A DNA stretch of 64,000 nt, taken from positions 1,664,001-1,728,000 of the forward strand of contig CM000208.1 in NCBI GenBank assembly GCA_000002445.1, given 5' to 3'. This DNA is from Trypanosoma brucei. Its lineage: Eukaryota. Of the stretch, positions 23,889-39,902 are shown piece after piece (position 1 is the first letter of the stretch; each line of letters opens with the position of its first letter). A model generated the notes under the pieces. That model did not search any database. It saw only the letters and a program-made list of their open reading frames with translations, and was not told where the DNA came from. The position numbers and the translations under genes are program-made.

Positions 23889-25415
23889 ATGGCTGGTGCG
23901 GAACAACGACAATTTCACAGCGTAGAGGAAGTTAGCGTAGAGTTAGGTCGCGCATCACTGCATGCTTCTTGGGGTTTCAAGACATATGACGGTGTCTGCC
24001 CCCTTCGTGTACGTGATGTAGCAGCGGAGATTCCTGAAGGTGTAAGGCGCGGTGATGAAATAATTGTAATTAACGGAATCCGACCAGGGAGCTATGATGA
24101 GGGAATGTCATTGCTGCATCAGGCGCAGTCAACCGTTCAGCTATGCGTTCGTCGTAAAGTCAGTGGAAGTAAGTGTGCGACAACAGTTGATGAAGGTGCA
24201 GAACCGCGGGAGTGTGAGTATATTGGTATCGAGCGAAACAGCTGGCGCAATCGAGCCTCACTCCATTCGCTTTCCCCTAGCGCGGAATGGGAGGGCACTA
24301 TATCCCCACAGCAACAACAACGGAAACCTGCGGACCAAACTACTGCAACATCATGTCACCACTCAGAGTCGGGTGTGAGGACGTCTGCACAGCTTGCACT
24401 TGACAAGGTGCTTTTGGCTGCGTGTGGAAAAGACGCACATTGTGAGGACACAATCACTGAAGGTACTACCGACACGGAGGGGCCACCAAGTGGGCCGAGC
24501 AGGGCCCCACTTTCCATTAACAGTCAAGTTGCTGGTATATGGCGAGGCATTTTAACTAGGAAACGGAAGCGTCTTGATGACGCCTCAAGGGATAGCAAAA
24601 ACTACATGGACGTTTGTAGTGTGCTTCCCAAACTTACCCACCAGGTCATTTACGACTGCCAAAACTGCCCCTTTTCAATTGAGGAGGGTTTCGTACCGGA
24701 GTTTCACAAATCTGTCCAGTACATTATGACTGAAAGGGCGCTGTCCCAAAAGCACGCCGCCGGTGACGAGGACGGAGACGGGGACGCGAAAGTGATGCTG
24801 GCGCCGGTGAAGGATCGCTCCGACGAAGATTTGTCAGCGGTGATGGCACAGGTAGAGGCTAAGAAGGCTCAGTGCGAAAAGGAAGTGAGCCAACGCGACA
24901 CTGTTGCTGATGTACACCGAATGAAAAAGATGTTGAGCTCGCAGCAAAGTGGCATGCTGAAGGTGGTGGAAAGCCACCGTGAGAGCCTTCTGCAGAAACT
25001 GAGGGAAGATGTGGGTTGGTATCGAGAGACGGAGTGCAGCGCCCAGGACTTCTTTGCTTTGCACTCAAAGGCCATCTCATGGTGTAGGAAAGCGTCGATA
25101 AAGCAATCTCCCGTTGATTCTAAGGTGAAGTACCCCGCATTTCACCATGGAAACCGCGAGGGCCATAAGCGGCACGAGCACCCTCAACTGCTCCCACCAC
25201 CGCCACCGCCACCGCCACCACCGCTGTCACAGCCGCATTTTCCACCCCCACCGTTTGCAGCGGCCCCTTCTAGCGCTGCTGTTGTCCCTGTGAGTACGGT
25301 TTCACCCCGTGGTAGGGTTGGATACGTTGCTCCCCCAGGGTATGCCAGGCGGCTTCCTCAGCACCCTCCTCTTTTTGATGTACGAACGCTGAATGCGACG
25401 TTGTATCACCGGTAG
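23889..25415 (+). CDS. hypothetical protein with N-terminal PDZ-like domain and C-terminal poly-proline tract
   Basis: 'GDEIIVINGIRPGSYDEGMSLLHQAQSTVQLCVRR' resembles a PDZ core (GD.I..vNG.....eA..ll..a...v.L.v.R). The run 'LLPPPPPPPPPPPLSQPHFPPPPF' lies near the C-terminus. Confidence 0.5.
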   Translation: MAGAEQRQFHSVEEVSVELGRASLHASWGFKTYDGVCPLRVRDVAAEIPEGVRRGDEIIVINGIRPGSYDEGMSLLHQAQSTVQLCVRRKVSGSKCATTVDEGAEPRECEYIGIERNSWRNRASLHSLSPSAEWEGTISPQQQQRKPADQTTATSCHHSESGVRTSAQLALDKVLLAACGKDAHCEDTITEGTTDTEGPPSGPSRAPLSINSQVAGIWRGILTRKRKRLDDASRDSKNYMDVCSVLPKLTHQVIYDCQNCPFSIEEGFVPEFHKSVQYIMTERALSQKHAAGDEDGDGDAKVMLAPVKDRSDEDLSAVMAQVEAKKAQCEKEVSQRDTVADVHRMKKMLSSQQSGMLKVVESHRESLLQKLREDVGWYRETECSAQDFFALHSKAISWCRKASIKQSPVDSKVKYPAFHHGNREGHKRHEHPQLLPPPPPPPPPPLSQPHFPPPPFAAAPSSAAVVPVSTVSPRGRVGYVAPPGYARRLPQHPPLFDVRTLNATLYHR

Positions 25416-25786: not shown

Positions 25787-26977
25787 ATGGAAGCTGTTGT
25801 GTATGAGATCGAGCAGGACCCAGATACAAGGTTGCATCGGCTAAGAAATGCTATGCTAGCCTTCGTTTCTGTACCCATGGCTTCTCCTCCTGCAGTGGCT
25901 CTTCTCGTTTCTCTCTCCCTGGACGAACCCCCGGGTTCTTCACGCAAGCAGCAGGATCGGGCCACAACAAAAGCAACGGCGGTCGAGACCCAACTTCGGA
26001 GCGCGTGCGACGATCGAGCCGTGCTTCTGAAGTGGTTGCGAGCCGAGATGAACATCGTGTTAGATATTCCTGTAGCCGCTTCTTTTGAACCTAGTGGGGC
26101 GGAGCAACTCTCCGTACTCTCCACATGGCAACAAGACCAGCACCGGTCCCCCCTGCGTAAAGCGGATATCGTATTACTTTCGTTGCGTAATGTGGCACCG
26201 CTGTGGGATAATCACGAGACTAGTTCATCCCTGCTCGGTCGTCAGCGTGACGTCTGTGCCCCACACCTTGGGTTGTTTCTTCTTGCTCATCAGAGCCTAT
26301 TGCTTGATGTGACCTGCTGTGTCGGAGGTGGAAAGCTGGAGTTGTTATCCCCTGCGGCCTTCAGTCCACTTCGTGCACGGCACATCGCGAAAGGCCGCAC
26401 AGCAGCCGTAGCATTTTACGGCTGTTGGCTGTCGCTAGCAGCAACACCAAGCGGTTTTCACATCTTACAGAAGAGACTTCAGTCACTAAACGAGCACGTT
26501 CTTTCTGCTATGCAGTTGCCCTTGTGCTGTTCTTACGGCGGAAAAGTTGGCAACCTTCAGCATAATTTATCAACGGTACCCAGCCCAGCAGGGGCGGCGC
26601 GACCCCGTGAGGTCCACACGGTTTCCGCACCACTGCTGCCCACGCGTCCATTAAGGGACATATTCAGTCTTCTGGGTTTCCTATTGGCTTGCCCGCACGT
26701 TGACTATTACAGCGAGGCCACTAAGTTTTGTACTCGGGTGGCGACAAGGAGAAAAACTGCATTGGTAACAGAGAACAAGTGTTTCAGCGGCTGCGCGACA
26801 CACAGTGAGGAGGTGGTTAAGAGATATGACAGAAAACGGATGAGAGGCGTGATTCGCGCATCATTGTCCATGCGTTCAAAGCGGCAACAGCACTCAAGTG
26901 CTCCAGATAAAAAACAAACTTTCACACAGCTAATAACATCGGAAGAACCTCTGTGGTATGAAGACTGCGGGTCTTAA
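25787..26977 (+). CDS. hypothetical protein
   Basis: 396-aa ORF in the same orientation and spacing as its neighbours. No recognisable motif. Confidence 0.4.
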   Translation: MEAVVYEIEQDPDTRLHRLRNAMLAFVSVPMASPPAVALLVSLSLDEPPGSSRKQQDRATTKATAVETQLRSACDDRAVLLKWLRAEMNIVLDIPVAASFEPSGAEQLSVLSTWQQDQHRSPLRKADIVLLSLRNVAPLWDNHETSSSLLGRQRDVCAPHLGLFLLAHQSLLLDVTCCVGGGKLELLSPAAFSPLRARHIAKGRTAAVAFYGCWLSLAATPSGFHILQKRLQSLNEHVLSAMQLPLCCSYGGKVGNLQHNLSTVPSPAGAARPREVHTVSAPLLPTRPLRDIFSLLGFLLACPHVDYYSEATKFCTRVATRRKTALVTENKCFSGCATHSEEVVKRYDRKRMRGVIRASLSMRSKRQQHSSAPDKKQTFTQLITSEEPLWYEDCGS

Positions 26978-27257
26978 GAGGGGGTCTCCACAGCACCCAC
27001 TACTTCATCTCTCTGAGATCATATACGCTGTCTCGGATTTTGTCTCCACTGCGGTTTGTTGTTGTTTTTGTGGATGGGGTGACTATCCTCTTTTTCAGCC
27101 ATCCTCCTCACTCCATTGTCATTCTCTTTGTGTTTCTCGAACCTAAATAGAAAAAATACGTTGAGAAGGTGCGTATTTGCTTTTCGGTGAACAAAGGTTT
27201 GTATAAAATAAGCCCGCTTTCTCTTATACATAAGCCCCACTTACCCTTGTAAAAAAG

Positions 27258-28727
27258 ATGATGCAAGGATTTCCCTCCTTAGGGGAAAAGGACCCAGCTG
27301 CCAAGCCACCAGCAGAGGGAAAACCGACCTCAGCTTCGGGAGAGAAACAACCGAGCGAAGCAGTACAGGGAATACCGCTATACCAAGGTGATGGTGATGA
27401 TAAAGAAGGATTGAAACGTTTTGTGGTACAGGGGTATAAGGATGTGTGGGCTGCAATATTATACATTTTATGCATTTTCGCCATCGCTGGAATCGGAGTA
27501 CACGCAATGTGGTCGAGAGGCTCCTCCGAAGAAAAACAAGAGGTTAAAAAAACAACAGCAGAAAATGAGCCTTCAAATTCAAAGTCCCTTTGGAGTGTCT
27601 ACTTTCTTGTTGGTGTGGCTGCTGCCGCTTCCATCGGTGCGGCGTCCGTGTCGTTTCTACTGATGCGTATGTTTCCACGCAAGACAATTCTTTTCGCAAA
27701 CATTGCCGCCATAATTATAAACATCATTTCAGCTTTGCTAGCAATATTATCAGGACACATGGTAAGCGGTATCCTCATGATGACATTATGTGCCCTGCAC
27801 ATAATGTGGTTTTTCTTTGCACGGCACCGAATTCCTTTTGCTGCAGAACTTCTCAAGGCCTCTATCGATGTGTTGTCTGGCTACAAGGCGGTATATTTAT
27901 TCAATGTCATGTTATGTGTTGGTTGCACAGGATTACTTATGCTGTGGGCAAACGCTTTTATGTGGACGTATCAAAGAAGTCAAGCGCAAGATTCATCATT
28001 CTCCGGTATAATTTACCTTTTCCTTATGCTTTTCTTATTTTGGACATCGCAGGTGACAACTAATCTGATGCATGTAACAACTGCTGGACTTACTGCTACA
28101 TGGTACTTTGCTGGTAAGGAGAATATGCCAAAGAATCCCACCCTCGCCTCATTCAAGCGAGGTACCACCACAAGCTTCGGCTCCATTTGCTTTGGGTCAC
28201 TGCTTGTGGCAATTATCCGTCTCATACGGTGGCTCGTGTCAACCGCAGAAGACAGTGAACATGAAATATTACGCTGTGTATTCCTTTGTATTATTGGTTG
28301 TTTGGAGAGGCTGATGGAATACTTCAACACATACGCATTTGTTCATGTTGCCATCTATGGTTGTGGGTACATTGAAGCAGCGAAAATGACATGGGAGTTG
28401 TGTAAACAGTGTGTGTTTTCTGCCCTGTTCAATGACACTCTGATTGATGTAACACTCGGGCTACTTGCTACTTGTGGTTCGCTACTGGTTGGTAGTGTTT
28501 TTGGTTTTCTCTTAAAATCCTGGGCAGCATTCGCGCTTGGTTTTGCCGTTTCTATATTGGTTCACCTCCTCATATTCTCCCCCGTGGGTAGTGCTGTAAC
28601 CACCTTATTCGTATGTTATGCGGAAGTGCCTGAGGGCCTTGAGCACTCATCCCCTGACTTGTACGCGGCTCTTCAGAGAACTGACCAAAACGGCACATCA
28701 AATGGAGCAGCACCTCCACGTGTGTAA
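27258..28727 (+). CDS. CTL/Pns1-like (SLC44 / 'Choline_transpo' family) multi-pass membrane transporter, array copy 1
   Basis: Conserved family core 'ATWYFAGKENMPKNPTLASFKRGTTTSFGSICFGSLLVAIIRLIRW' and 'CLERLMEYFNTYAFVHVAIYGCGYIEAAKMTWEL...NDTLIDVTLGLLATCGSLLVG'. These match Pns1/CTL 'WYF.....P..P...S..R.....GS.AFGSL..AI...IR' and 'CL...L.Y.N.YA....AIYG..F...AK.....L..N.......D.V.D..L..G.L.V'. The protein has ~10 predicted TM helices. The substrate cannot be inferred. Confidence 0.75.
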   Translation: MMQGFPSLGEKDPAAKPPAEGKPTSASGEKQPSEAVQGIPLYQGDGDDKEGLKRFVVQGYKDVWAAILYILCIFAIAGIGVHAMWSRGSSEEKQEVKKTTAENEPSNSKSLWSVYFLVGVAAAASIGAASVSFLLMRMFPRKTILFANIAAIIINIISALLAILSGHMVSGILMMTLCALHIMWFFFARHRIPFAAELLKASIDVLSGYKAVYLFNVMLCVGCTGLLMLWANAFMWTYQRSQAQDSSFSGIIYLFLMLFLFWTSQVTTNLMHVTTAGLTATWYFAGKENMPKNPTLASFKRGTTTSFGSICFGSLLVAIIRLIRWLVSTAEDSEHEILRCVFLCIIGCLERLMEYFNTYAFVHVAIYGCGYIEAAKMTWELCKQCVFSALFNDTLIDVTLGLLATCGSLLVGSVFGFLLKSWAAFALGFAVSILVHLLIFSPVGSAVTTLFVCYAEVPEGLEHSSPDLYAALQRTDQNGTSNGAAPPRV

Positions 28728-29407
28728 AACTTCTTAAGCTCATGCATATAAGGAGGATATGTGTTTGTCTCTCTTCTGCAAAAACTTTCCCTCCCATACC
28801 CAATTTCGCACACTCGCACCGTGTGAAGAAGAGTCAAATATCTTTTGTTTTTGATTCACTATATATAATGCACTGAAGCGTGTGTTATGCATGCAAATAA
28901 ATTGATAACATCGCTGACTCTTCTTTTTGTTCTATTATATTACTCTGTTCGATTTGCTCTTGACTATTTTGTATTTTCTTTCCGTTTCATGTGATGGATG
29001 CGAGGGACATAACCACAACATATTGAATGTGTCGCGGTGTAAACTGCTCTGTTGTGAGCGATCGGTATTGTGTTAGTATTTTTGTTCCAAGTGTTGAGGA
29101 AGTTGAATAGAGTCCTGATGCAGTCCACTCATGCGGTAAGCAGTGATGCGCCTTAGTGTGAGAATTCCTTTGATACTGTGTGATTTGCACACTTCCATTC
29201 TTCTTCGTCACTGGAAGCTGTTGCTACTGCATACTAATGCATCATCATTTCCTATTTCCTTTCCTCTTCCATAATTTTCCATTTTCTCTGTTTTTTAATC
29301 AAACAAATAAGATATATTGCAAGTGTACGCAATTGCTATCCAGCAACAAAGGGCTATAGACACTATTATCTCAGTGATAAGGTATTGTTTATTTCTGAAG
29401 AAGGACG

Positions 29408-30880
29408 ATGAACAAGCAATACGGAACAGAAACAAATCGCTACGACTATGATGTGTGGCAGGAAAATCAGCGGAATTGTCGGCAGGAATGTTCACCACAA
29501 GCTGTGCCGCTACAAGGAATACCGCTATACCAAGGTGATGGTGATGATAAAGAAGAGCTGAAACGTTTTGTGGTACAAGGGTATAAGGATGTGTGGGCTG
29601 CAATATTATACATTTTATGCATTCTTGCAACTATTGGGCTTGGAATATATAATATTGTGAAGCCTGATGCTTCAGGAGAAGAAGAAGAGGAAAGTGTCGT
29701 ATCGGTTAAATCATCTAACCCGTTTTCTGGTGTGTTTAAAAGTGTTTACATTTGGATTGCCGTTGCTGGTGGAATTGCCATAGCTGTGGCGTCGCTTTCC
29801 TTTCTCTTTATGAGGATGTTTCCTCGGAAGATTATTATTGTGGCAAATGTTGTCTCGATTATCATCAATATTGGAGGCGCCGCTGCCGCCATTGTGATGG
29901 GGGTGCTTCCACTTGGCATTGCTTTACTCATTATGTGCGCTATGCACATACTGTGGTTTTACTTTGCACGGCACCGAATTCCTTTTGCTGCAGAACTTCT
30001 CAAGGCCTCTATCGATGTGTTGTCTGGCTACAAGGCGGTATATTTATTCAATGTCATGTTATGTGTTGGTTGTGCGGGGTTTACCATATTATGGGGGTAC
30101 GCAGCTGTTCCTTCACTAGAAACTGCCAGTAACAAAGGTGACAGTGGGGCACTAGCGGTTTTGCTACTTCTTTTCCTTATGTTGGTTTTTTTTTGGTCAT
30201 CTCAAGTTACTGGAAATCTGATGCATGTAACAACTGCTGGACTTACTGCTACATGGTACTTTGCTGGTAAGGAGAATATGCCAAAGAATCCCACCCTCGC
30301 CTCATTCAAGCGAGGTACCACCACAAGCTTCGGCTCCATTTGCTTTGGGTCACTGCTTGTGGCAATTATCCGTCTCATACGGTGGCTCGTGTCAACCGCA
30401 GAAGGTAGTGAACATGAAATATTACGCTGTATATTCCTTTGTATTATTGGTTGTTTGGAGAGTTTGATGGAATACTTCAACACATACGCATTTGTTCATG
30501 TTGCCATCTATGGTTGTGGGTACATTGAAGCAGCGAAAATGACATGGGAGTTGTGTAAACAGTGTGTGTTTTCTGCCCTGTTCAATGACACTCTAATTGA
30601 TGTAACACTGAATCTACTTGTTACTTGTGGTTCGCTACTGGTTGGTAGTGTTGTCGGTCTACTCTTCAGATCCTGGGTAGCATTCGCGCTTGGTTTTGCC
30701 GTTTCTATATTGGTTCACCTCCTCATATTCTCCCCCGTAACCAGTGCTGTAACCACCTTATTCGTATGTTATGCGGAAGTGCCTGAGGGCCTTGAGCACT
30801 CATCCCCTGACTTGTACGCGGCTCTTCAGAGAACTGACCAAAACGGCACATCAAATGGAGCAGCACCTCCACGTGTGTAA
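29408..30880 (+). CDS. CTL/Pns1-like transporter, array copy 2
   Basis: Same conserved core as copy 1. Distinct N-terminus 'MNKQYGTETNRYDYDV' and a unique TM2-4 segment. Confidence 0.75.
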   Translation: MNKQYGTETNRYDYDVWQENQRNCRQECSPQAVPLQGIPLYQGDGDDKEELKRFVVQGYKDVWAAILYILCILATIGLGIYNIVKPDASGEEEEESVVSVKSSNPFSGVFKSVYIWIAVAGGIAIAVASLSFLFMRMFPRKIIIVANVVSIIINIGGAAAAIVMGVLPLGIALLIMCAMHILWFYFARHRIPFAAELLKASIDVLSGYKAVYLFNVMLCVGCAGFTILWGYAAVPSLETASNKGDSGALAVLLLLFLMLVFFWSSQVTGNLMHVTTAGLTATWYFAGKENMPKNPTLASFKRGTTTSFGSICFGSLLVAIIRLIRWLVSTAEGSEHEILRCIFLCIIGCLESLMEYFNTYAFVHVAIYGCGYIEAAKMTWELCKQCVFSALFNDTLIDVTLNLLVTCGSLLVGSVVGLLFRSWVAFALGFAVSILVHLLIFSPVTSAVTTLFVCYAEVPEGLEHSSPDLYAALQRTDQNGTSNGAAPPRV

Positions 30881-31579
30881 AACTTCTTAAGCTCATGCAT
30901 ATAAGGAGGATATGTGTTTGTCTCTCTTCTGCAAAAACTTTCCCTCCCATACCCAATTTCGCACACTCGCACCGTGTGAAGAAGAGTCAAATATCTTTTG
31001 TTTTTGATTCACTATATATAATGCACTGAAGCGTGTGTTATGTATGCATTTTACCGGCTTCACCATGATAAACCACATACTTGATGTAGTAGGTGAAATT
31101 AGATGCCGCAGTATCTGGTCGTGTGTAGCAGTAAATATATTAATAAATAACGACTCTTTATTATCGTAACTGCGCAAAAAGTGTTTAACATGAGCGATAT
31201 TTTTTATGATACGTACGACATTATCGTGAGCGATCGGTATTGTGTTAGTATTTTTGTTCCGTGTGTTGAGGAAGTTGAATAGAGTCCTGATGCAGTCCAC
31301 TCATGCGGTAAGCAGTGATGCGCCTTAGTGTGAAAATTCCTTTGATACTGTGTGATTTGCACACTTCCATTCTTCTTCGTCACTGGAAGCTGTTTCTACT
31401 GTATACTAATGCATCATCATTTCCTATTTCCTTTCCTCCTCCATCATTTTCCATTTTCTCTGTTTTGTAATCAAACAAATAAGATATATTGCAAGTGTAC
31501 GCAATTGCTATCCAGCAACAAAGGGCTATAGACACTATTATCTCAGTGATAAGGTATTGTTTATTTCTGAAGAAGGACG

Positions 31580-33052
31580 ATGAACAAGCAACACGGAACA
31601 GAAACAAATCGTTACGACTATGATGTGTCGCAGAAGGATCGGCGAAATTCTGATTCTCGGGAGTGTTCACCACATGCTGTGCCGCTACAAGGAATACCGC
31701 TATACCAAGGTGAAGGTAATAATCAAGAAGGATTGAAACGTTTTGTGGTACAAGGGTACAAGGATGTGTGGGCTGCAATATTATACATTTTATGCATTCT
31801 TGCAACTATTGGGCTTGGAATATATAATATTATGCGGAAGGATTCTTCGATGAAGGATGTAGAAAGCACTAATACAACAGCAGAAAATGAGCCTTCAAAT
31901 TCAAAGTCCCTTTGGAGTGTCTACTTTCTTGTTGGCGTGGCTGCTGCCGCTTCCATCGGTGCGGCGTCCGTGTCGTTTCTACTGATGCAGAAGTTTCCAC
32001 GCAAGACAATTCTTTTTGCAAACATTGCTGCCATAATTATAAACATCATTTCAGCTCTTTTGGCGTATCGATCAGGCTATATTGTGGCTTCTGCTGTAAT
32101 GATGACATTATGTGCCCTGCACATACTGTGGTTTTACTTTGCACGGCACCGAATTCCTTTTGCTGCAGAACTTCTCAAGGCCTCTATCGATGTGTTGTCT
32201 GGCTACAAGGCGGTATATTTATTCAATGTCATGTTATGTGTTGGTTGCACAGGATTACTTATACTGTGGGCAAACGCTTTTATGTGGGCGTTTCGGAGGG
32301 TTAAATGGGAGACATCCGCTTCTTTCGGGTGGCCTCTGCTTGTGTTCCTTATGCTTTTCTTATTTTGGACATCGCAGGTGACAACTAATCTGATGCATGT
32401 AACAACTGCTGGACTTACTGCTACATGGTACTTTGCTGGTAAGGAGAATATGCCAAAGAATCCCACCCTCGCCTCATTCAAGCGAGGTACCACCACAAGC
32501 TTCGGCTCCATTTGCTTTGGGTCACTGCTTGTGGCAATTATCCGTCTCATACGGTGGCTCGTGTCAACCGCAGAAGACAGTGAACATGAAATATTACGCT
32601 GTATATTCCTTTGTATTATTGGTTGTTTGGAGAGTTTGATGGAATACTTCAACACATACGCATTTGTTCATGTTGCCATCTATGGTTGTGGGTACATTGA
32701 AGCAGCGAAAATGACATGGGAGTTGTGTAAACAGTGTGTGTTTTCTGCCCTATTCAATGACACTCTGATTGATGTAACACTCGGGCTACTTGCTACTTGT
32801 GGTTCGCTACTGGTTGGTAGTGTTTTTGGTTTTCTCTTAAAATCCTGGGCAGCATTCGCGTTTGGTTTTGCCGTTTCTATATTGGTTCACCTCCTCATAT
32901 TCTCCCCCGTGGGTAGTGCTGTAACCACCTTATTCGTATGTTATGCGGAAGTGCCTGAGGGCCTTGAGCACTCATCCCCTGACTTGTACGCGGCTCTTCA
33001 GAGAACTGACCAAAACGGCACATCAAATGGAGCAGCACCTCCACGTGTGTAA
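31580..33052 (+). CDS. CTL/Pns1-like transporter, array copy 3 (mosaic of copy-2-type N-terminus and copy-1-type middle)
   Basis: N-terminus 'MNKQHGTETNRYDYDV' is copy-2-like. The middle 'TTAENEPSNSKSLWSVYFLVGVAAAASIGAASVSFLLM' is identical to copy 1. The C-terminal half is identical to copy 1. Confidence 0.75.
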   Translation: MNKQHGTETNRYDYDVSQKDRRNSDSRECSPHAVPLQGIPLYQGEGNNQEGLKRFVVQGYKDVWAAILYILCILATIGLGIYNIMRKDSSMKDVESTNTTAENEPSNSKSLWSVYFLVGVAAAASIGAASVSFLLMQKFPRKTILFANIAAIIINIISALLAYRSGYIVASAVMMTLCALHILWFYFARHRIPFAAELLKASIDVLSGYKAVYLFNVMLCVGCTGLLILWANAFMWAFRRVKWETSASFGWPLLVFLMLFLFWTSQVTTNLMHVTTAGLTATWYFAGKENMPKNPTLASFKRGTTTSFGSICFGSLLVAIIRLIRWLVSTAEDSEHEILRCIFLCIIGCLESLMEYFNTYAFVHVAIYGCGYIEAAKMTWELCKQCVFSALFNDTLIDVTLGLLATCGSLLVGSVFGFLLKSWAAFAFGFAVSILVHLLIFSPVGSAVTTLFVCYAEVPEGLEHSSPDLYAALQRTDQNGTSNGAAPPRV

Positions 33053-33725
33053 AACTTCTTAAGCTCATGCATATAAGGAGGATATGTGTTTGTCTCTCTT
33101 CTGCAAAAACTTTCCCTCCCATACCCAATTTCGCACACTCGCACCGTGTGAAGAAGAGTCAAATATCTTTTGTTTTTGATTCACTATATATAATGCACTG
33201 AAGCGTGTGTTATGCATGCAAATAAATTGATAACATCGCTGACTCTTCTTTTTGTTCTATTATATTACTCTGTTCGATTTGCTCTTGACTATTTTGTATT
33301 TTCTTTCCGTTTCATGTGATGGATGCGAGGGACATAACCACAACATATTGAATGTGTCGCGGTGTAAACTGCTCTGCTGTGAGCGGTCAGTATTGAGTTA
33401 ATATTTTTGTTCCGTGTGTTGAGGAAGTTGAATAGAGTCCTGATGCAGTCCACTCATGCGGTAAGCAGTGATGCGCCTTAGTGTGAAAATTCCTTTGATA
33501 CTGTGTGATTTGCACACTTCCATTCTTCTTCGTCACTGGAAGCTGTTGCTACTGCATACTAATGCATCATCATTTCCTATTTCCTTTCCTCTTCCATAAT
33601 TTTCCATTTTCTCTGTTTTGTAATCAAACAAATAAGATATATTGCAAGTGTACGCAATTGCTATCCAGCAACAAAGGGCTATAGACACTATTATCTCAGT
33701 GATAAGGTATTGTTTATTTCTGAAG

Positions 33726-35243
33726 ATGACGCAAAAGGGGTACGTCGGAGTTCCTGAGGAACCATACAGGTCTAAATTTACTCCTGAGGTGGGACCTTAT
33801 TATGGATTTGAAGGAGAAGGAACACATGCTGTGCCGCTACAAGGAATACCGCTATACCAAGGTGAAGGTAATAATCAAGAAGGATTGAAACGTTTTGTGG
33901 TACAAGGGTATAAGGATGTGTGGGCTGCAATATTATACATTTTATGCATTCTTGCAACTATTGGGCTTGGAATATATAATATTTGTCAGCAGGGATTGCG
34001 TAGTTTAATATCTGCTGATGTAGTAAATATTTTTTGGGCTTGTAATGATGATAGTTGTATTGACTCGGTGTGTCTTTTCTTTCTTCTTGCTTTTGCTTTT
34101 TCAGTTATTGTATGTTTGTCCTCTTTGTCGTTGATGAAACGTTTTGCTAGCGGAATAATCAAGGGTTGCAACGTTATTTTGCTTATTTTTTATGTCGTTG
34201 CTTTCCTTTTTTCGGTATGGGCACTTAATAACGCTTTTGCTATTCCATGGTTTTGTATGCTGGTTGTGCATTTACTTTGGCTTTTCTTTGCAGGTCGGCG
34301 TATTCCTCTCGCTGCTGAGCTTCTGAAAAGCTCTTCTACTGTGGTATGTAACTACAAAGCACTGTGCGCAGTCAACGCCGTCCTGTTTGGTGCACATGTC
34401 TTTTTCAGTGTTATGTGGGCGTCTGTTATGAAACCACTATATGCGCAGCTGGCGAAGATGGAGTTAAATCCGAGCGCTGGTGGAGCTCGCAATGAGGAAG
34501 ATTTGACTCTCAACATTCTATTCCTAAGCTTGCTTGCTCTGCTGTTCGTCATGTTTTGGGCGACGCAGGTGACAACTAATCTGATGCATGTAACAACTGC
34601 TGGACTTACTGCTACATGGTACTTTGCTGGTAAGGAGAATATGCCAAAGAATCCCACCCTCGCCTCATTCAAGCGAGGTACCACCACAAGCTTCGGCTCC
34701 ATTTGCTTTGGGTCACTGCTTGTGGCAATTATCCGTCTCATACGGTGGCTCGTGTCAACCGCAGAAGACAGTGAACATGAAATATTACGCTGTATATTCC
34801 TTTGTATTATTGGTTGTTTGGAGAGTTTGATGGAATACTTCAACACATACGCATTTGTTCATGTTGCCATCTATGGTTGTGGGTACACTGAAGCAGCGAA
34901 AATGACATGGGAGTTGTGTAAACGGTGTTCTTGTGCTGCTTTGTTTAATGACAGACTGATTGATGTGACATTATTTGTTGCTTCATTTATTGGTTCGCTA
35001 CTGGTTGGTGTTATCGTCGGTCTTGTGTCTGCATCGGGAGGTGGATTTGCGTTTGGTTTCACCGTTTCTATATTGGTTCACCTTTTCATATTCTCCCCCG
35101 TGGGTAGTGCTGTAACCACCTTATTCGTATGTTATGCGGAAGTGCCTGAGGGCCTTGAGCACTCATCCCCTGACTTGTACGCGGCTCTTCAGAGAACTGA
35201 CCAAAACGGCACATCAAATGGAGCAGCACCTCCACGTGTGTAA
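33726..35243 (+). CDS. CTL/Pns1-like transporter, array copy 4 (subfamily B, divergent transmembrane core)
   Basis: The ORF-track start at 33642 reads through the conserved 5' flank. The first Met aligned with the other copies is at 33726 ('MTQKGYVGVPEEPYRSKF'). The 'GEGNNQEGLKRFVVQGYKDVWAAILYILCILATIGLGIYNI' segment is shared with copy 3. Then comes a divergent TM region with 'RRIPLAAELLKSSSTVVCNYKAL'. The invariant core and shared tail follow. Confidence 0.7.
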   Translation: MTQKGYVGVPEEPYRSKFTPEVGPYYGFEGEGTHAVPLQGIPLYQGEGNNQEGLKRFVVQGYKDVWAAILYILCILATIGLGIYNICQQGLRSLISADVVNIFWACNDDSCIDSVCLFFLLAFAFSVIVCLSSLSLMKRFASGIIKGCNVILLIFYVVAFLFSVWALNNAFAIPWFCMLVVHLLWLFFAGRRIPLAAELLKSSSTVVCNYKALCAVNAVLFGAHVFFSVMWASVMKPLYAQLAKMELNPSAGGARNEEDLTLNILFLSLLALLFVMFWATQVTTNLMHVTTAGLTATWYFAGKENMPKNPTLASFKRGTTTSFGSICFGSLLVAIIRLIRWLVSTAEDSEHEILRCIFLCIIGCLESLMEYFNTYAFVHVAIYGCGYTEAAKMTWELCKRCSCAALFNDRLIDVTLFVASFIGSLLVGVIVGLVSASGGGFAFGFTVSILVHLFIFSPVGSAVTTLFVCYAEVPEGLEHSSPDLYAALQRTDQNGTSNGAAPPRV

Positions 35244-35916
35244 AACTTCTTAAGCTCATGCATATAAGGAGGATATGTGTTTGTCTCTCTTCTGCAAAAA
35301 CTTTCCCTCCCATACCCAATTTCGCACACTCGCACCGTGTGAAGAAGAGTCAAATATCTTTTGTTTTTGATTCACTATATATAATGCACTGAAGCGTGTG
35401 TTATGCATGCAAATAAATTGATAACATCGCTGACTCTTCTTTTTGTTCTATTATATTACTCTGTTCGATTTGCTCTTGACTATTTTGTATTTTCTTTCCG
35501 TTTCATGTGATGGATGCGAGGGACATAACCACAACATATTGAATGTGTCGCGGTGTAAACTGCTCTGTTGTGAGCGGTCAGTATTGAGTTAATATTTTTG
35601 TTCCGTGTGTTGAGGAAGTTGAATAGAGTCCTGATGCAGTCCACTCATGCGGTAAGCAGTGATGCGCCTTAGTGTGAAAATTCCTTTGATACTGTGTGAT
35701 TTGCACACTTCCATTCTTCTTCGTCACTGGAAGCTGTTTCTACTGCATACTAATGCATCATCATTTCCTATTTCCTTTCCTCCTCCATCATTTTCCATTT
35801 TCTCTGTTTTTTAATCAAACAAATAAGATATATTGCAAGTGTACGCAATTGCTATCCAGCAACAAAGGGCTATAGACACTATTATCTCAGTGATAAGGTA
35901 TTGTTTATTTCTGAAG

Positions 35917-37470
35917 ATGACGCAAAAGGGGTACGTCGGAGTTCCTGAGGAACCATACAGGTCTAAATTTACTCCTGAGGGGGGACCTTATTATGGATTT
36001 GAAGGAGAAGGAACACATGCTGTGCCGCACAAGGGAATACCGCTATACCAGGTGAAGGTTAATATCAAAAAGGGATTGAAACGTTTTGTGGTCAAGGGTA
36101 TTAGGGATGTGTGGGCTGCAATTTAATACATTTATGCATTTCTTGCAACTATTGGCTTTGCGTGGTATAATACTTTTTCTCAAAATTTTTCTGAAATTAT
36201 ATAGGATAGTGTTGGAAAGTTATTCTGGCGCAGTTCTGACGAATGCTTTACTGTTTTTCTCTCTGTTCTTTTCTTTGTTTCTTCTGTCAGTTCAGTAATT
36301 TTATCCTTGTTTTCTTTATCGTTGATGAAGCGCTTTCCACATGATATGATCATCACGGCAAACCTTCTATTCTTTGCCGTGTGCATTGTTGGTTTTTTGT
36401 TGTCTATTCTTTGGGGAAATCTTTATTTACTTCTTTTATGTTTGGGTCTTTTTATTGTGCATTGGTTATGTTTTACGGAGTTGCGGAACCGCGTTCCATT
36501 CGCTGCTGAGCTTCTGAAAAGCTCTTCTACTGTGGTATGTAACTACAAAGCACTGTGCGCAGTCAACGTCGTCCTCTTTGGTATGTTTACCCTTTTTCTG
36601 GTTTTGTGGTGCTCCGCTTTCTCTGCACTGAGCAATGTGTTGAGTAAACAACCAGACCCGAGCAGTGGTGTGAGTGGTAAACGAGGCAATTCATTTTTGA
36701 TTATTTCTGTATATTTACTGCACCTAATGTTGCTGTTTGTCATGTTTTGGGCGACGCAGGTGACAACTAATCTGATGCATGTAACAACTGCTGGACTTAC
36801 TGCTACATGGTACTTTGCTGGTAAGGAGAATATGCCAAAGAATCCCACCCTCGCCTCATTCAAGCGAGGTACCACCACAAGCTTCGGCTCCATTTGCTTT
36901 GGGTCACTGCTTGTGGCAATTATCCGTCTCATACGGTGGCTCGTGTCAACCGCAGAAGACAGTGAACATGAAATATTACGCTGTATATTCCTTTGTATTA
37001 TTGGTTGTTTGGAGAGTTTGATGGAATACTTCAACACATACGCATTTGTTCATGTTGCCATCTATGGTTGTGGGTACACTGAAGCAGCGAAAATGACATG
37101 GGAGTTGTATAAACGGTGTTCTTGTGCTGCTTTGTTTAGTTGTTTTTTTGTTGACGCTATGTTGTGTCTATTTGCAGTACTAAGCGCCCTTCTTGTTTGT
37201 GCTGTTGTTTGTACTGCTTATGGTTTAGTCTTTGATTTATCGTTTGGTATTTTGCATATTACCGCTGAAATCTTCGTATTCAGTTTTGGTGTTTGTATGT
37301 TGGTTCACCTCTTCGTCTTTTCTTCCGTAACCAGTGCTGTAACCACCTTATTCGTATGTTATGCGGAAGTGCCTGAGGGCCTTGAGCACTCATCCCCTGA
37401 CTTGTACGCGGCTCTTCAGAGAACTGACCAAAACGGCACATCAAATGGAGCAGCACCTCCACGTGTGTAA
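35917..37470 (+). pseudogene. CTL/Pns1-like transporter, array copy 5, disrupted by frameshifts in the N-terminal third (probable pseudogene or sequencing-error-containing copy)
   Basis: The copy-4-type start 'MTQKGYVGVPEEPYRSKFTPE' (35917) runs only to 36126. The frame resumes at 36307 with a subfamily-B middle 'RVPFAAELLKSSSTVVCNYKALCAVNVV' and the invariant core. The 36000-36310 interval shows multiple substitutions/indels relative to copy 4. Confidence 0.6.
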
Positions 37471-38107
37471 AACTTCTTAAGCTCATGCATATAAGGAGGA
37501 TATGTGTTTGTCTCTCTTCTGCAAAAACTTTCCCTCCCATACCCAATTTCGCACACTCGCACCGTGTGAAGAAGAGTCAAATATCTTTTGTTTTTGATTC
37601 ACTATATATAATGCACTGAAGCGTGTGTTATGTATGCAAATAAATTGATAACATCGCTGACTCTTCTTTTTGTTCTATTATATTACTCTGTTCGATTTGC
37701 TCTTGACTATTTTGTATTTTCTTTCCGTTTCATGTGATGGATGCGAGGGACATAACCACAACATATTGAATGTGTCGCGGTGTAAACTGCTCTGTTGTGA
37801 GCGGTCAGTATTGAGTTAATATTTTTGTTCCGTGTGTTGAGGAAGTTGAATAGAGTCCTGATGCAGTCCACTCATGCGGTAATAGGAGTGACATTCCAAT
37901 GTTTGTACATTATTTGTGTCGTTTTAAATTTATTACGTCTTTTTTTTTTTTGTGTGTGTGTGTGCTTCTTGTCTTTCTGATGTTGTGGTGATGTCTTCTA
38001 TCTGTTTTTTTTTCAGTTTCTATTCATTGCTTAATATTGTTTTTTTACTTCTTTTTTATTGTTGGTGTAGATACGGATTGTAGAAGTCGTGTTGTTGGTC
38101 TGCCTGA

Positions 38108-38761
38108 ATGCGTGCGCTGTTTGGCGGTTTTGTCTTTGTTGTTGGTAACGATGTGCCGCAAGAGGTGCTTTCTCTAGTCGTTGCTTGTGGGGGTCGAGTG
38201 TGCAGGGAACTCACAGCTGCCACTACGCATGGCTTAGTTGTTGGACCTGAGTGCGGGGATTCTATTGATGTTGAACAATTACGCGGCCTGCGGATTCCAA
38301 TACTTCGAACTCATTGGATACGTGCGTGTGTAGCTGCTTTACGTATTTTGCCGATGAAAGGGGCAGCTGCTGCGTTCGACCCTTTTCTTTTTGATTCTTT
38401 ATTGTTTACAACTACGATGATGCGATGTGACCTGAAGGATCGTGTTGCTGCTCTTATTATTTTTTTGGGAGGTTCCTATTCTCCTCATCTTACCATCAGC
38501 ACTGATGTAGTGCTGGTTGGAGATGATGCGGTGGAGTCAATTAGTGGGAGTGATTGCGTTGTTGACGTTTCGCTTGTTGATAAGTCGCATCGTGGTCCCG
38601 CGAAACCTTTGGGTGCTGCAAATGCGGGCGTTAAGCGTGGTGTGCGTAGCTCAAAGTTAAAGCTGGCCGCAAGTCGCTCAATTCCATGTGTGAATTTGGT
38701 TTGGTTACAAAAGTGTATTTCCACTGGACAGGTGCATCTTCCCGTGACTGGGGGGTTGTGA
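38108..38761 (+). CDS. hypothetical protein with two BRCT-like domains
   Basis: The first module 'LFGGFVFVVGN....THGLVVG........IPILRTHWIRACV' and the second 'LFDSLLFTTT...DRVAALIIFLGGSY.......VVLVGDD......IPCVNLVWLQKCISTG' both follow the BRCT pattern. That pattern is a hydrophobic core, a G/GG turn, and a C-terminal W..xC. Confidence 0.45.
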   Translation: MRALFGGFVFVVGNDVPQEVLSLVVACGGRVCRELTAATTHGLVVGPECGDSIDVEQLRGLRIPILRTHWIRACVAALRILPMKGAAAAFDPFLFDSLLFTTTMMRCDLKDRVAALIIFLGGSYSPHLTISTDVVLVGDDAVESISGSDCVVDVSLVDKSHRGPAKPLGAANAGVKRGVRSSKLKLAASRSIPCVNLVWLQKCISTGQVHLPVTGGL

Positions 38762-39902
38762 TGGTGCCTAGGGCCATTATTTATTATTTTTTTTACATTA
38801 GATATTACCATAGATCTTTTAATTGTGCTTTCTGTTTCGTACGTTTTATTAAGTTTCTTTTTCATTTCGTAAGCTGGTGTTCTGTTTTGAACATGTACTT
38901 TGCGGCACAAAGATTATCGTTGAAGAAAGTGTGTTTTGTACTTTTCGTTAAGTTATTATTCTTGTTGAGAGCTTAGCGACGCGTATCGTACAGAAAGTTT
39001 GCTAACTTTTCCACCACTGGTGTTGATGAATGGAGCAGCCGGGCTTGTTTGCACAGGGGGTGTGATGTTGACGTGTGCCTAGATATTAGATTGTGGATTT
39101 TCCTAGAAAAGAGAAAGGTTTGTATGCGGTGGAAGTGTCTGATGCGCGGTTTCGACCAGCGGGCCGACATTTGACAGAAGAGATTCTTCAGAGCTATTTA
39201 TTCCCGATTGAAGAGTTTCAGTTGTTTTATTTCTTTTTTAAAGTTTCATCTCTCTTTTTCTTCAGTGTGCGGTTCCCTTCTTCTCAGTTGACTTTCGGTG
39301 ACTCTGTTTCATTGCGCCCTTCTCGGTTATGTTGCTTCGTGCATATCCGTTGTTTCTTTTTTCTCCCCTTCTCTTGTCATCTTGCTTTGACTAGTTTCAT
39401 TCACAGGAAGGTTGATAATCGTCTCCACCCCGTTTTTTTTTTTGTGTTACTCATCATTTCGGAGGGGAATTGCTCATGTAACGGGGTCTCCGTTTAAAAG
39501 CGCTTCTTTTTTTTTTAAAAAAAACTCTACATTTCCTTTTTGTATTGAATGTTGTCGTTGGTTTCAACTGCCTTTCTCTTCTGTATTGCTGGGGACTTTT
39601 ATTCGTTTGTGAACTTTTTTTTTGTTTTCGGGCCCGTTTAGAAGGAAAGAAAAAAGGGAACTATATTTCTGTGTAGGCAGACGGGCGGGCTCACCACCGC
39701 AGATTGAGGCCGCGGTGATTGGGACTTGGCAAGCACCCTAAGGAAAGGCTGTCAACAAAATAGTTGTAATAAAGCCGAAACATTTGTGTGTGTGCGTGAG
39801 AGAAGGGGGGGGGAAACAGAAGAGGAGGCACTTAGAACAATAGTAAAAGCATCGTAGGGGAAACGGGTGAGGGGTTTGTGATAACAGGACGCCGGCAACC
39901 AA

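What the first reader, a model, noticed from the sequence alone, without database searches (positions are those of the whole stretch)
27150..37885. Five-copy head-to-tail array of CTL/Pns1-like (SLC44-type) membrane transporters
A single ~10.7-kb locus is made of five ~2.2-kb units. Each unit encodes a ~490-530-aa polytopic membrane protein. The conserved blocks 'TWYFAGKENMPKNPTLASFKRGTTTSFGSICFGSLLVAIIRLIRW' and 'MEYFNTYAFVHVAIYGCGY.EAAKMTWEL' match the signature region of the choline-transporter-like / Pns1 family (TC 2.A.92). Such tandem amplification of a transporter family, with hypervariable N-terminal and transmembrane halves, is unusual for a housekeeping permease. It suggests selection for diversification (substrate range, surface exposure/immune pressure, or dosage). 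If this family has not been functionally described in this organism, it is the best candidate in the window for a new system: a polymorphic surface transporter array.
Basis: partly seen in the sequence, partly recalled or inferred. Interest (0 to 1): 0.8.

Follow-up and report, generated by a model that had tools for sequence, protein, structure and literature searches.

The report
Known trypanosome CTL/Pns1 tandem gene array
This is a real five-copy tandem array of choline-transporter-like (Pns1-type) membrane protein genes on Trypanosoma brucei chromosome 10, but it is already annotated and was analysed in two published tandem-array surveys, and nothing here supports a new, immune-driven "polymorphic surface transporter" system.

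Summary
Window 27258-37885 carries five head-to-tail units of about 2.2 kb, each with a PF04515 (Choline_transpo) gene (E 1e-64 to 1e-68). The window is T. b. brucei TREU927 chromosome 10, and the genes are Tb927.10.6720-6760. Copies 1-4 are intact (489, 490, 490 and 505 aa). Copy 5 (517 codons) has two in-frame stops inside a 220-nt stretch that looks like a sequencing error.

The AlphaFold model matches only yeast Pns1 and human CTL1 in the PDB.

The array is already known. It is array 103 (Tb10.70.0040) in Jackson 2007 and 2010, which reported concerted evolution, recombination mosaics and subspecies-specific copies. I reproduced all of this independently:
- The core and the 3' flank are nucleotide-identical in all copies (dS about 0).
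- Helices M2-M5, the outer loops and the N-tail have saturated dS, with dN/dS 0.2-0.7.
- Orthologs are 94-100% identical between subspecies, so the copies are not polymorphic between strains.

Non-salivarian relatives carry one gene at the syntenic locus, and African trypanosomes carry two to five. Choline transport by this family is contested (Nel 2026).

Verdict: ordinary and already catalogued. The function remains unknown.

The parts
27258..28727 (+). Copy 1 CDS, 489 aa (Tb927.10.6720 by gene order; EAN78086.1)
   Evidence: ORF. PF04515 E 4.4e-67. Exact match to the TREU927 protein. AF2 model pLDDT 89.4, matching Pns1 9f63.
29408..30880 (+). Copy 2 CDS, 490 aa (Tb927.10.6730; EAN78087.1). 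The copy closest to the forms in other species.
   Evidence: Closest to T. congolense P0007 and to the outgroups in the variable regions. TrypTag places it in the flagellar pocket 'ring'. Phosphorylated on its N- and C-tails.
31580..33052 (+). Copy 3 CDS, 490 aa (Tb927.10.6740; EAN78088.1). A chimera with a copy-2-like 5' end (about 240 nt) and a copy-1-like body. Absent from T. b. gambiense DAL972.
   Evidence: The 60-nt window mosaic analysis. DAL972 locus with four genes.
33726..35243 (+). Copy 4 CDS, 505 aa from the ATG at 33726 (Tb927.10.6750; EAN78089.1)
   Evidence: The ORF tool's TTG start at 33642 is an artefact of the bacterial code.
35917..37470 (+). Copy 5, 517 codons with two in-frame stops at 36124-36126 and 36202-36204 (Tb927.10.6760 by gene order; no protein record in TREU927)
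   Evidence: tblastn of the intact DAL972 ortholog P0005 covers all 517 codons in one frame at 94% identity. Stops located. Accession numbering skips it.
36029..36250 (+). Lesion stretch in copy 5. It holds 48 of the 52 differences from the DAL972 ortholog: 9 extra bases, 9 missing bases and 15 substitutions. Probably a low-quality stretch of the reference sequence.
   Evidence: Over the same motif, copy 4 (927) and copy 5 (DAL972) are identical to each other.
28062..28371 (+). Homogenised core block, given in copy 1 coordinates. It encodes the end of M6, AH2, M7 and most of M8. Tracts of 190 nt and 60 nt are identical in all five units. The equivalent blocks are at 30215-30524, 32387-32696, 34578-34887 and 36769-37078.
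   Evidence: identity runs. (dS 0-0.1 across columns 286-385). (per-helix identity 97-100%).
28590..28889 (+). A 300-nt tract identical in all five units, covering the last 138 nt of the CDS (C-tail) and the first 162 nt of the 3' flank. Equivalents are at 30743-31042, 32915-33214, 35106-35405 and 37333-37632.
31043..31225 (+). Copy-2-specific 3'-flank cassette of about 183 nt. It is unrelated to the block that copies 1, 3, 4 and 5 carry at the same position (for example 28890-29053).
   Evidence: Intergenic alignment. Unit profile columns 1700-1900 show 35-55% identity for unit 2 against 99-100% among the others.
29054..29407 (+). Shared upstream region (pyrimidine-rich; presumed splice-acceptor and 5' UTR) preceding copies 2-5. 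Repeated at 31226-31579, 33379-33725 and 35570-35916. After copy 5, only its first ~86 nt (37797-37882) are present, and this marks the end of the array.
   Evidence: Repeat families D9 and D12. Intergenic alignment.

Best explanation
The locus is the already catalogued T. brucei chromosome 10 tandem array Tb927.10.6720-6760 (Jackson's array 103, old ID Tb10.70.0040). [quoted passage not shown]

Shown here:
- A single ancestral gene sits at a conserved syntenic position (PTP1 - two genes - CTL - BRCT - VPS45 - GCP). It was amplified in African (salivarian) trypanosomes.
- All copies lie in one polycistronic unit.
- Copy number changes by unequal crossing-over: 4, 4 and 5 copies in three T. brucei subspecies.
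- Segmental gene conversion keeps the end of M6 through AH2, M7, M8 and AH3, the C-terminal tail and about 165 nt of 3' flank nucleotide-identical.
- The N-terminal tail, the M1-M2 loop, helices M2-M5, the M5-M6 loop and M9 have escaped conversion. They have diverged to saturation under net purifying or relaxed constraint.
- The result is four stable isoform types (copy 1/3, copy 2, copy 4, copy 5) that are conserved between subspecies.

Inferred:
- The isoforms share one conserved core (the putative ligand or lipid site) and differ in the peripheral helices that shape the opening of the bowl, and in their cytosolic tails. They are therefore sub-functionalised variants with different ligand access, partners, trafficking or regulation.
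- They act in the flagellar pocket or endomembrane system, in a choline- or lipid-related role.
- They are not an antigenically diversifying surface family.
- Whether they transport anything is unproven.
For: Identity and annotation:
- Exact matches to the TREU927 proteins EAN78086-89, named 'Choline transporter-like protein' in UniProt.
- ID anchors: VPS45 = Tb927.10.6780, PTP1 = Tb927.10.6690 = Tb10.70.0070.

Family:
- PF04515 at E 1e-64 to 1e-68 over the full profile.
- Sequence hit to PNS1 9f63 at E 5.5e-32.
- AF2 model with pLDDT 89.4 and pTM 0.88. Its only Foldseek PDB hits below 1e-3 are 9f63 (E 2.5e-20, TM 0.83) and CTL1 7wwb and 9qu3.

Expansion:
- One copy in T. theileri and L. tarentolae at the syntenic locus.
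- About three copies in T. vivax and at least two in T. congolense.
- Four in DAL972 and four in T. equiperdum.

Gene conversion:
- Tracts of 190, 60 and 300 nt are identical in all five units.
- dS is 0-0.1 in the core but 1.3 to above 2.5 in the variable segments.
- Copy 3 is a copy 2 / copy 1 chimera, and T. equiperdum gene 4 is a mosaic.
- T. congolense P0007 is closer to T. brucei copy 2 than to its own paralog P0015 in the variable regions (51/69/46/57% against 33/44/43/30%). In the C-tail it is 95% identical to P0015 against 70% to T. brucei.

Published agreement:
- Jackson 2007: Ds 0.48, Dn 0.29, orthology rejected at p=0.0001, concerted evolution not rejected.
- Jackson 2010: 4+4 annotated copies, 3 shared isoforms, 1 unique to each subspecies, PHI p<0.001, 4-6 breakpoints.

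Stability: orthologs are 94-100% identical.

Expression and localisation:
- Tb927.10.6730 is in the flagellar pocket 'ring' class in TrypTag.
- It is phosphorylated on both tails in procyclic forms.
- Its protein rises at 6-24 h of stumpy-to-procyclic differentiation.
- Tb427.10.6740 was found in 3 of 4 surface-labelled bloodstream-form samples and in 0 of 3 unlabelled controls.
Against: - No functional test exists for any copy, so sub-functionalisation is an inference from sequence pattern only.
- dS is saturated in the variable segments. Segment-wide dN/dS below 1 therefore cannot exclude positive selection at individual sites.
- T. vivax keeps near-identical copies (98-100%). Amplification for dosage alone is clearly possible in this family.
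- Only three subspecies assemblies were compared, so population-level polymorphism is untested.
- The localisation evidence covers one copy in one life-cycle stage.
- The mapping of gene IDs to copies rests on consecutive numbering between two anchored genes.
Confidence: 0.75

Rival explanations
1. Gene dosage only. The array exists to raise expression of one housekeeping CTL protein in a genome without individual promoters. The divergence between copies is neutral drift in poorly constrained helices and has no functional meaning.
For: Jackson 2007 gives dosage as the primary purpose of T. brucei arrays. T. vivax keeps its copies 98-100% identical. The variable regions are also the least conserved between single-copy species (53-54% against 88% for T. 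grayi vs T. cruzi). dN/dS is below 1.
Against: Four distinct isoform types are each kept at 94-100% identity across subspecies. At least the copy 2 lineage predates the T. brucei / T. congolense split, so the copies have been retained for a long time rather than lost or homogenised. The N-tails differ, and copy 2 has its own 3'-flank cassette.
Confidence: 0.25
2. One reading: a polymorphic surface transporter array under diversifying selection, driven by immune pressure or widening of substrate range.
For: The greatest divergence falls in the predicted outer loops (M1-M2 loop 11% and M5-M6 loop 14% mean identity, with insertions in copies 4 and 5). One member is at the flagellar pocket. One member was recovered after surface labelling of live bloodstream forms.
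Against: Orthologs are 94-100% identical between subspecies. Segment dN/dS is 0.2-0.7. Membrane helices M2-M5 are as variable as the loops, which does not fit antibody pressure. The outer loops are short. The locus is chromosome-internal and syntenic, not subtelomeric. Transport by this family is contested.
Confidence: 0.07
3. Genuine choline or ethanolamine carriers with different affinities. On this reading the array supplies the so far unassigned choline uptake activity of T. brucei.
For: The family name and Pfam description. A 2026 phosphoproteome paper calls Tb927.10.6730 'the choline transporter'. Choline uptake has been characterised in T. brucei (Macedo 2013, cited). No gene was assigned to it in any of the papers I could search. 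Glu393, Tyr394 and Asp432 of the PNS1 pocket are conserved in copies 1-4 (alignment).
Against: CTL1, PNS1 and CherI showed no choline or ethanolamine uptake in oocytes, and the closed bowl fold is hard to reconcile with alternating access (PMC13160678). Six of the nine PNS1 pocket residues are not conserved here. The label is an annotation, not an assay.
Confidence: 0.2
4. Assembly artefact: a single gene expanded or mis-assembled into five copies.
For: Repeats are hard to assemble. Copy 5 contains a stretch that looks like poor sequence.
Against: The copies differ by 16-43% in protein sequence and have unalignable segments. The same ordered isoforms occur in two other independent assemblies. 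Published surveys count 4+4 annotated copies.
Confidence: 0.01

Closest known systems
Saccharomyces cerevisiae PNS1 (PDB 9F63), the Pns1-type branch of the CTL / SLC44 family (PF04515)
   Same: The full-length Pfam match is the same. The predicted architecture has the same 10 helices plus three amphipathic helices (TM-score 0.83 normalised to the 9f63 chain, 25% identity). There is no large extracellular domain between M1 and M2. The N-tail is long and disordered. The motifs 'TTSFGSICFGSLL' and 'EYFN.YAF' are shared.
   Different: Only 3 of the 9 residues lining the PNS1 pocket are conserved (Glu393, Tyr394, Asp432), and copy 5 lacks the Asp. Yeast has one gene, whereas T. brucei has 4-5 diverged tandem copies.
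Human CTL1 / SLC44A1 (PDB 7WWB, 9QU3)
   Same: Same family and same core fold (Foldseek E about 1e-8; sequence E 2.5e-7).
   Different: CTL1 has a large extracellular domain between M1 and M2, which is absent here (the M1-M2 loop is about 12 residues in the model). Identity is only 16-19%.
T. brucei variable tandem gene arrays evolving in concert (Jackson 2007, BMC Evol Biol 7:54; Jackson et al. 2010, PLoS NTD 4:e658). Examples are the amino acid transporter, hexose transporter and ISG arrays.
   Same: This locus is one of them (array 103, Tb10.70.0040). It shows same-strand duplicates in a polycistronic unit, non-coding flanks more conserved than parts of the CDS, chimeric copies, subspecies-specific isoforms and loss of orthology in the homogenised parts (reproduced).
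   Different: Nothing essential differs. What I add is the mapping of converted and escaped segments onto the Pns1 fold, the inference from one Stercorarian and one Leishmania locus that a single copy was ancestral, and the diagnosis of the copy 5 lesion.

Membership tests
CTL / Pns1 family (Pfam PF04515 Choline_transpo; SLC44) | Significant, full-length match to the PF04515 profile | tested here: met
   All five copies score E 1.9e-64 to 1.1e-68 (218-232 bits against a cut-off of 26.9) and cover profile positions 1-3 to 326 of 326.
CTL / Pns1 family (Pfam PF04515 Choline_transpo; SLC44) | Bowl-like fold of 10 transmembrane helices, with three amphipathic helices between M4/M5, M6/M7 and M8/M9 | tested here: met
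   The AF2 model of copy 1 (pLDDT 89.4, pTM 0.88) has the matching helix series. The only Foldseek PDB hits below 1e-3 are PNS1 9f63 (E 2.5e-20, TM 0.72/0.83) and CTL1 7wwb and 9qu3. This is a predicted structure, not a solved one.
CTL / Pns1 family (Pfam PF04515 Choline_transpo; SLC44) | Conservation of the residues lining the putative central pocket of PNS1 (Arg296, Trp390, Glu393, Tyr394, His397, Asp432, Asn436, Glu492, Arg495) | tested here: inconclusive
   Three of nine are conserved in copies 1-4 (Glu393 and Tyr394 in 'MEYFN', Asp432 in 'FNDT'). Copy 5 has Cys at the Asp position. The family itself conserves only the Tyr between PNS1 and CTL1, so this feature discriminates poorly.
Metazoan SLC44A1-5 subtype | Large extracellular domain between M1 and M2 | tested here: not met
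   The model has M1 at 63-98 and M2 at 111-138, leaving a loop of about 12 residues. PNS1 likewise lacks this domain. The proteins are therefore Pns1-type, not SLC44A-type.
CTL / Pns1 family as 'choline transporters' (TC 2.A.92, number recalled from memory) | Demonstrated choline or ethanolamine transport | not testable with these tools
   No assay exists for any trypanosome member in the searchable literature. For CTL1, PNS1 and CherI, transport was not detected. The TCDB assignment was not checked because no tool covers it.
T. brucei tandem arrays under concerted evolution (Jackson 2007) | Paralogs within a species are more alike than homologs at the syntenic locus in other species, in at least part of the repeat | tested here: met
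   In the core, T. brucei copies are 88-100% identical to each other but 73-84% to T. congolense. In the C-tail, T. brucei copies are 100% identical and the two T. congolense paralogs 95%, but only 70% between species. Published: orthology rejected at p=0.0001.
T. brucei tandem arrays under concerted evolution (Jackson 2007) | Partial gene conversion or chimeric copies | tested here: met
   Tracts identical in all five units, of 190, 60 and 300 nt, are flanked by 25-60% identity. dS is about 0 against above 1.3. Copy 3 and T. equiperdum gene 4 are mosaics. Published: PHI p<0.001 with 4-6 breakpoints.
Antigenically diversifying or contingency surface gene families (e.g. VSG, ESAG6/7) | High sequence polymorphism of the same locus between strains | tested here: not met
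   Orthologs are 98-99% (copy 1), 99-100% (copy 2), 99% (copy 3) and 95-100% (copy 4) identical. Copy 5 is 94%, and nearly all of that difference is the suspect 220-nt stretch. Only three assemblies were compared.
Antigenically diversifying or contingency surface gene families (e.g. VSG, ESAG6/7) | Excess of non-synonymous change (dN/dS above 1) in exposed parts | tested here: not met
   Nei-Gojobori dN/dS by segment is 0.2-0.7 in the variable segments for all paralog pairs. Caveat: dS is saturated and no site-level test was run.
Antigenically diversifying or contingency surface gene families (e.g. VSG, ESAG6/7) | Subtelomeric or expression-site location | tested here: not met
   The locus lies about 1.6-1.7 Mb into chromosomes of 3.9-4.1 Mb, inside a one-strand polycistronic unit, with gene order conserved as far as Leishmania.

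The most novel reading that the evidence does not exclude
African trypanosomes have turned a single housekeeping Pns1-type CTL protein into a modular set of flagellar-pocket proteins. Gene conversion is tolerated only in one invariant 'engine' (the end of M6 through AH3, plus the C-tail). Selection keeps four different peripheral modules (M2-M5, the outer loops and the N-tail) that set ligand or lipid access, or partner choice, in different hosts and life-cycle stages. If so, the array would be a natural domain-swap experiment that could reveal what the enigmatic CTL fold actually does.
Probability: 0.12. Interest if true: 0.55.

Novelty: already known. Interest (0 to 1): 0.2.

Why it matters
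As a discovery it matters little. The genes are annotated, the array has been listed twice in published tandem-array surveys, and its mode of evolution is the standard one for T. brucei.

Three things remain of value:
1. [quoted passage not shown] A parasite with four natural isoforms sharing an identical core but different peripheral helices is a convenient system to probe that question.
2. In the literature I could search, the gene behind T. brucei choline uptake is still unassigned. The label 'choline transporter' now being applied to Tb927.10.6730 is untested.
3. The reference sequence of Tb927.10.6760 probably contains base-calling errors that make an intact gene look like a pseudogene.

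Tried and rejected
- Assembly artefact: rejected. The copies are distinct, and two other assemblies agree.
- Truncated fifth gene (the 387-aa TTG ORF): rejected. The full 517-codon frame is present with two stops.
- Genuine decay of copy 5: judged unlikely. There are 9 insertions exactly balanced by 9 deletions within 250 nt, with near-perfect sequence on both sides. This cannot be settled without the reads.
- Antisense ORFs of 150-164 aa inside the conserved core (32203-32655, 34352-34846, 36543-37037): treated as mechanical by-products of a repeated block. All 26 long ORFs in the window are on the + strand.
- Structured RNA in the repeat or its flanks: no Rfam hit at gathering threshold in 26000-39000.
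- Literature searches for a trypanosome CTL study ('choline transporter-like' with T. brucei, PF04515, surface proteome, SLC44): nothing specific was found.
- Cell-surface phylome (Jackson 2013): no mention of choline or of these IDs in the main text.
- Shimogawa 2015 surface proteome: not held in the library.
- High-confidence surface (ESP) set of Gadelha 2015: membership could not be established. Only the 'All proteins' sheet carries the hit.
- T. brucei P0002 lookup by exact protein: returned no contig, so the TREU927 identity was established through cluster membership instead.

Full report
**1. What is in the sequence**

Between 27258 and 37882 the + strand carries five head-to-tail units with start-to-start spacing of 2153, 2172, 2191 and 2227 nt. 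Each unit holds one long reading frame:
- copy 1, 27258-28727, 489 aa
- copy 2, 29408-30880, 490 aa
- copy 3, 31580-33052, 490 aa
- copy 4, 33726-35243, 505 aa from its ATG (the 533-aa ORF listed from a TTG at 33642 is an artefact of the bacterial start-codon rule)
- copy 5, 35917-37470, 517 codons

G+C falls to 0.40-0.42 over the array, against about 0.47-0.53 on either side. All 26 ORFs of at least 250 aa in the window lie on the + strand. This is the layout of a trypanosomatid polycistronic transcription unit.

**2. Where it comes from**

Copies 1-4 and both upstream genes are exact matches to T. brucei brucei TREU927 proteins on the 4,054,025-bp chromosome 10. Copies 1-4 are EAN78086-EAN78089, and the downstream BRCT gene is EAN78090. 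UniProt names the four proteins 'Choline transporter-like protein'.

Two anchors fix the gene IDs: VPS45 = Tb927.10.6780 and PTP1 = Tb927.10.6690. By consecutive numbering, copies 1-5 are Tb927.10.6720-6760. This step is an inference from gene order.

**3. Family membership**

- All five copies match PF04515 over the whole profile, at E 1.9e-64 to 1.1e-68.
- By sequence, copy 1 finds yeast PNS1 (9f63, E 5.5e-32) and human CTL1 (E 2.5e-7) among solved structures.
- An AlphaFold2 model built on a 64-sequence alignment is confident (pLDDT 89.4, pTM 0.88). It shows the expected series of ten long helices plus short amphipathic ones.
- Foldseek against the PDB returns only three hits below 1e-3: PNS1 (E 2.5e-20, TM 0.83 normalised to the target) and two CTL1 entries.
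- The M1-M2 loop is about 12 residues, so the proteins are Pns1-type. They lack the large extracellular domain of metazoan SLC44A proteins.
- Of the nine residues lining the PNS1 pocket, Glu393, Tyr394 and Asp432 are conserved in copies 1-4. Copy 5 has Cys at the Asp position.

**4. Copy 5**

The intact 517-aa ortholog from T. b. gambiense DAL972 (P0005) aligns to the whole of 35917-37470 in one frame at 94% identity. Of the 52 nucleotide differences, 48 fall in 36029-36250. A gapped alignment resolves them into 9 extra bases, 9 missing bases and 15 substitutions. These produce in-frame stops at 36124 and 36202.

Over the conserved motif in this stretch, copy 4 of TREU927 and copy 5 of DAL972 are identical to each other. 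Only TREU927 copy 5 deviates. Eighteen exactly balanced single-base slips in 250 nt, flanked by near-perfect sequence, are what poor base-calling produces. Neutral decay would not give this pattern. I therefore think copy 5 is probably intact in the organism. That is an inference, and only the reads can settle it.

**5. Anatomy of the repeat**

A sliding-window comparison of the five units shows a sharp mosaic. Tracts of 190, 60 and 300 nt are identical in all five units. The 300-nt tract spans the last 138 nt of the CDS and the first 162 nt after the stop codon. Between these tracts lie segments with only 25-60% nucleotide identity.

Mean identity among the four isoform types, mapped on the model's helices:

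| Element | Identity |
|---|---|
| M6-AH2 link, AH2, M7, C-tail | 100% |
| M8 | 97% |
| AH3 | 88% |
| pre-M1 motif | 87% |
| M10 | 76% |
| AH1 | 72% |
| M6 | 57% |
| M1 | 51% |
| M9 | 47% |
| N-tail | 34% |
| M2, M3, M4, M5 | 29-33% |
| M5-M6 loop | 14% |
| M1-M2 loop | 11% |

Copies 4 and 5 carry insertions at the M5-M6 junction, and copy 5 has a 12-residue insertion between M9 and M10.

Nei-Gojobori estimates give dS 0-0.1 in the core. In the variable segments dS is 1.3 to above 2.5 (saturated), with dN/dS 0.2-0.7. Synonymous identity across 100 codons and into the 3' flank cannot be due to protein-level selection, so it indicates gene conversion. The variable segments are old and show no segment-wide excess of replacement changes.

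**6. Recombinant copies and copy number**

- Copy 3 has a copy-2-like first ~240 nt and a copy-1-like body at 93-100% identity.
- DAL972 has four genes (489, 490, 505 and 517 aa) and lacks copy 3.
- T. equiperdum has four genes (489, 490, 490 and 505 aa) and lacks copy 5. Its fourth gene is copy 4 up to about nt 1260 and then a mosaic whose end is copy-5-like.
- Orthologs are 94-100% identical between the three subspecies, and paralogs are 57-84% identical.

The copies are therefore stable isoforms with presence/absence variation. They are not strain-variable sequences.

**7. Flanks**

The first ~165 nt after each stop codon are identical in all five units. Copy 2 then carries a cassette of about 183 nt (31043-31225) that is unrelated to the block shared by copies 1, 3, 4 and 5. 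After that, all units share the pyrimidine-rich region that precedes the next gene. After copy 5 the similarity ends at 37882. Copy 1 has its own unrelated upstream region. In trypanosomes 3' UTRs control mRNA abundance (established knowledge), so the copy 2 cassette may give that copy separate regulation. This is an inference and was not tested.

**8. Evolutionary origin**

The gene order PTP1 - two genes - CTL - BRCT - Sec1/VPS45 - GCP is conserved.
- T. theileri and Leishmania tarentolae have one CTL gene there.
- T. vivax has a 5.56-kb multi-gene unit repeated at least three times at 98-100% identity.
- T. congolense has at least two diverged paralogs.

T. congolense P0007 is closer to T. 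brucei copy 2 than to its own paralog P0015 in every variable region (51/69/46/57% against 33/44/43/30%). In the C-tail it is 95% identical to P0015 and only 70% to the T. brucei copies. This is the classic signature of a duplication older than the speciation, followed by concerted evolution of part of the gene.

Copy 2 is the most conservative copy, and copies 4 and 5 sit on long branches. The variable regions are also the least constrained parts between single-copy species (53-54% against 88% for T. grayi vs T. cruzi).

**9. What was already published**

With PTP1 = Tb10.70.0070, the old ID Tb10.70.0040 falls on copy 1.
- Jackson 2007 lists array 103 (Tb10.70.0040) among 47 T. brucei tandem arrays. 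It reports Ds 0.48, Dn 0.29, monophyly of the array copies in 500/500 bootstraps, the orthology scenario rejected at p=0.0001 and the concerted scenario not rejected. The paper states the general rule that less conserved regions can escape conversion and diverge.
- Jackson et al. 2010 list the same array with 4 annotated copies in each subspecies, 3 shared isoforms, 1 unique to each, PHI p<0.001 and 4-6 breakpoints over 1557 sites.

This is exactly what I found independently: copies 1, 2 and 4 are shared, copy 3 is brucei-only, and an intact copy 5 is gambiense-only.

**10. Experimental data on the proteins**

- TrypTag lists Tb927.10.6730 in the 'ring' class of flagellar-pocket localisations in procyclic forms.
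- A 2026 phosphoproteome found it phosphorylated on both hydrophilic tails and called it a choline transporter. That name comes from annotation only.
- Its protein rises at 6-24 h of stumpy-to-procyclic differentiation.
- Tb927.10.6720 mRNA is bound by CSD1 and regulated during RBP6-driven development.
- Tb427.10.6740 gave 67 PSMs. It was seen in 3 of 4 surface-labelled bloodstream-form samples, 0 of 3 unlabelled samples and 2 of 2 dead-cell samples. I could not show that it belongs to the high-confidence surface set.

**11. Function**

The 'transporter' label is weak for the whole family. Nel et al. 2026 found no choline or ethanolamine uptake by CTL1, PNS1 or CherI in oocytes. They solved CTL1 and PNS1 and judged the closed, bowl-like fold hard to reconcile with alternating access. 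They suggest a regulatory or lipid-related role while not excluding transport under other conditions. They also note that the position of the M3/M4 hairpin is the largest difference between the two structures.

In the trypanosome array M2-M5 are the most divergent helices, while the M6-M8 core is identical. My best reading, which is an inference, is that the isoforms share one core site and differ in access, partners, trafficking or regulation.

**12. Verdict**

The claims that the array is unusual, polymorphic, immune-driven or a new system are not supported. The locus is an ordinary, already catalogued T. brucei tandem array of a family whose biochemical function is unknown. Interest is low. 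Two things remain of value: it is a natural set of 'same core, different periphery' isoforms for studying the CTL fold, and the reference sequence of Tb927.10.6760 probably contains an error.

Noticed in passing
window 36029-36250: This stretch of copy 5 differs from the DAL972 ortholog by 9 extra bases, 9 missing bases and 15 substitutions, and the gene is near-identical on both sides. It creates two in-frame stops. It looks like a low-quality patch in the TREU927 reference rather than a real pseudogene.
   Followed up: partly
window 31043-31225: Copy 2 alone carries an unrelated cassette of about 183 nt in its 3' flank. Copies 1, 3, 4 and 5 share a common block of about 164 nt at that position. 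This may give copy 2 separate post-transcriptional control.
   Followed up: partly
window 28001-38000: G+C drops to 0.40-0.42 across the array, against about 0.47-0.53 in the flanking genes, with a strong T excess (AT skew down to -0.27).
   Followed up: no
window 32203-32655, 34352-34846, 36543-37037 (minus strand): Antisense ORFs of 150-164 aa recur inside the conserved core of copies 3-5. They share sequence only because the core is repeated, and they are most likely meaningless.
   Followed up: no
L003 1-21119 (T. vivax, SOPI01000403.1): At the syntenic locus T. vivax has a 5.56-kb unit (CTL gene plus neighbouring genes, including a 222-aa ORF) repeated at least 3-4 times at 98-100% identity. 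Several of its CTL copies are called as fragments (372, 185 and 228 aa), possibly because of indel errors in the assembly.
   Followed up: partly
L002 10001-11518 (T. equiperdum gene 4): This gene is copy-4-like up to about nt 1260. A stretch of about 60 nt (1321-1380) then matches no reference copy well (35-68%). After that comes a copy-5-like segment at 97%. It is a subspecies-specific mosaic, and that strain has no separate copy 5.
   Followed up: partly
window 23889-25415: The upstream 508-aa ORF (Tb927.10.6700 = KKIP3 by gene order; UniProt calls it PDZ domain-containing) has a run of 11 prolines near its C-terminus.
   Followed up: no
window 38001-40000: This interval has the strongest G-over-C skew (0.171) and T excess (AT skew -0.278) in the window. 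It spans the BRCT gene and the intergenic region before VPS45.
   Followed up: no
window 39903-41678: The ORF tool gives VPS45 a TTG start and 591 aa, whereas the called genes in DAL972 and T. equiperdum are 589 aa. Like the 33642 start of copy 4, this is an artefact of applying bacterial start codons to a eukaryote.
   Followed up: no
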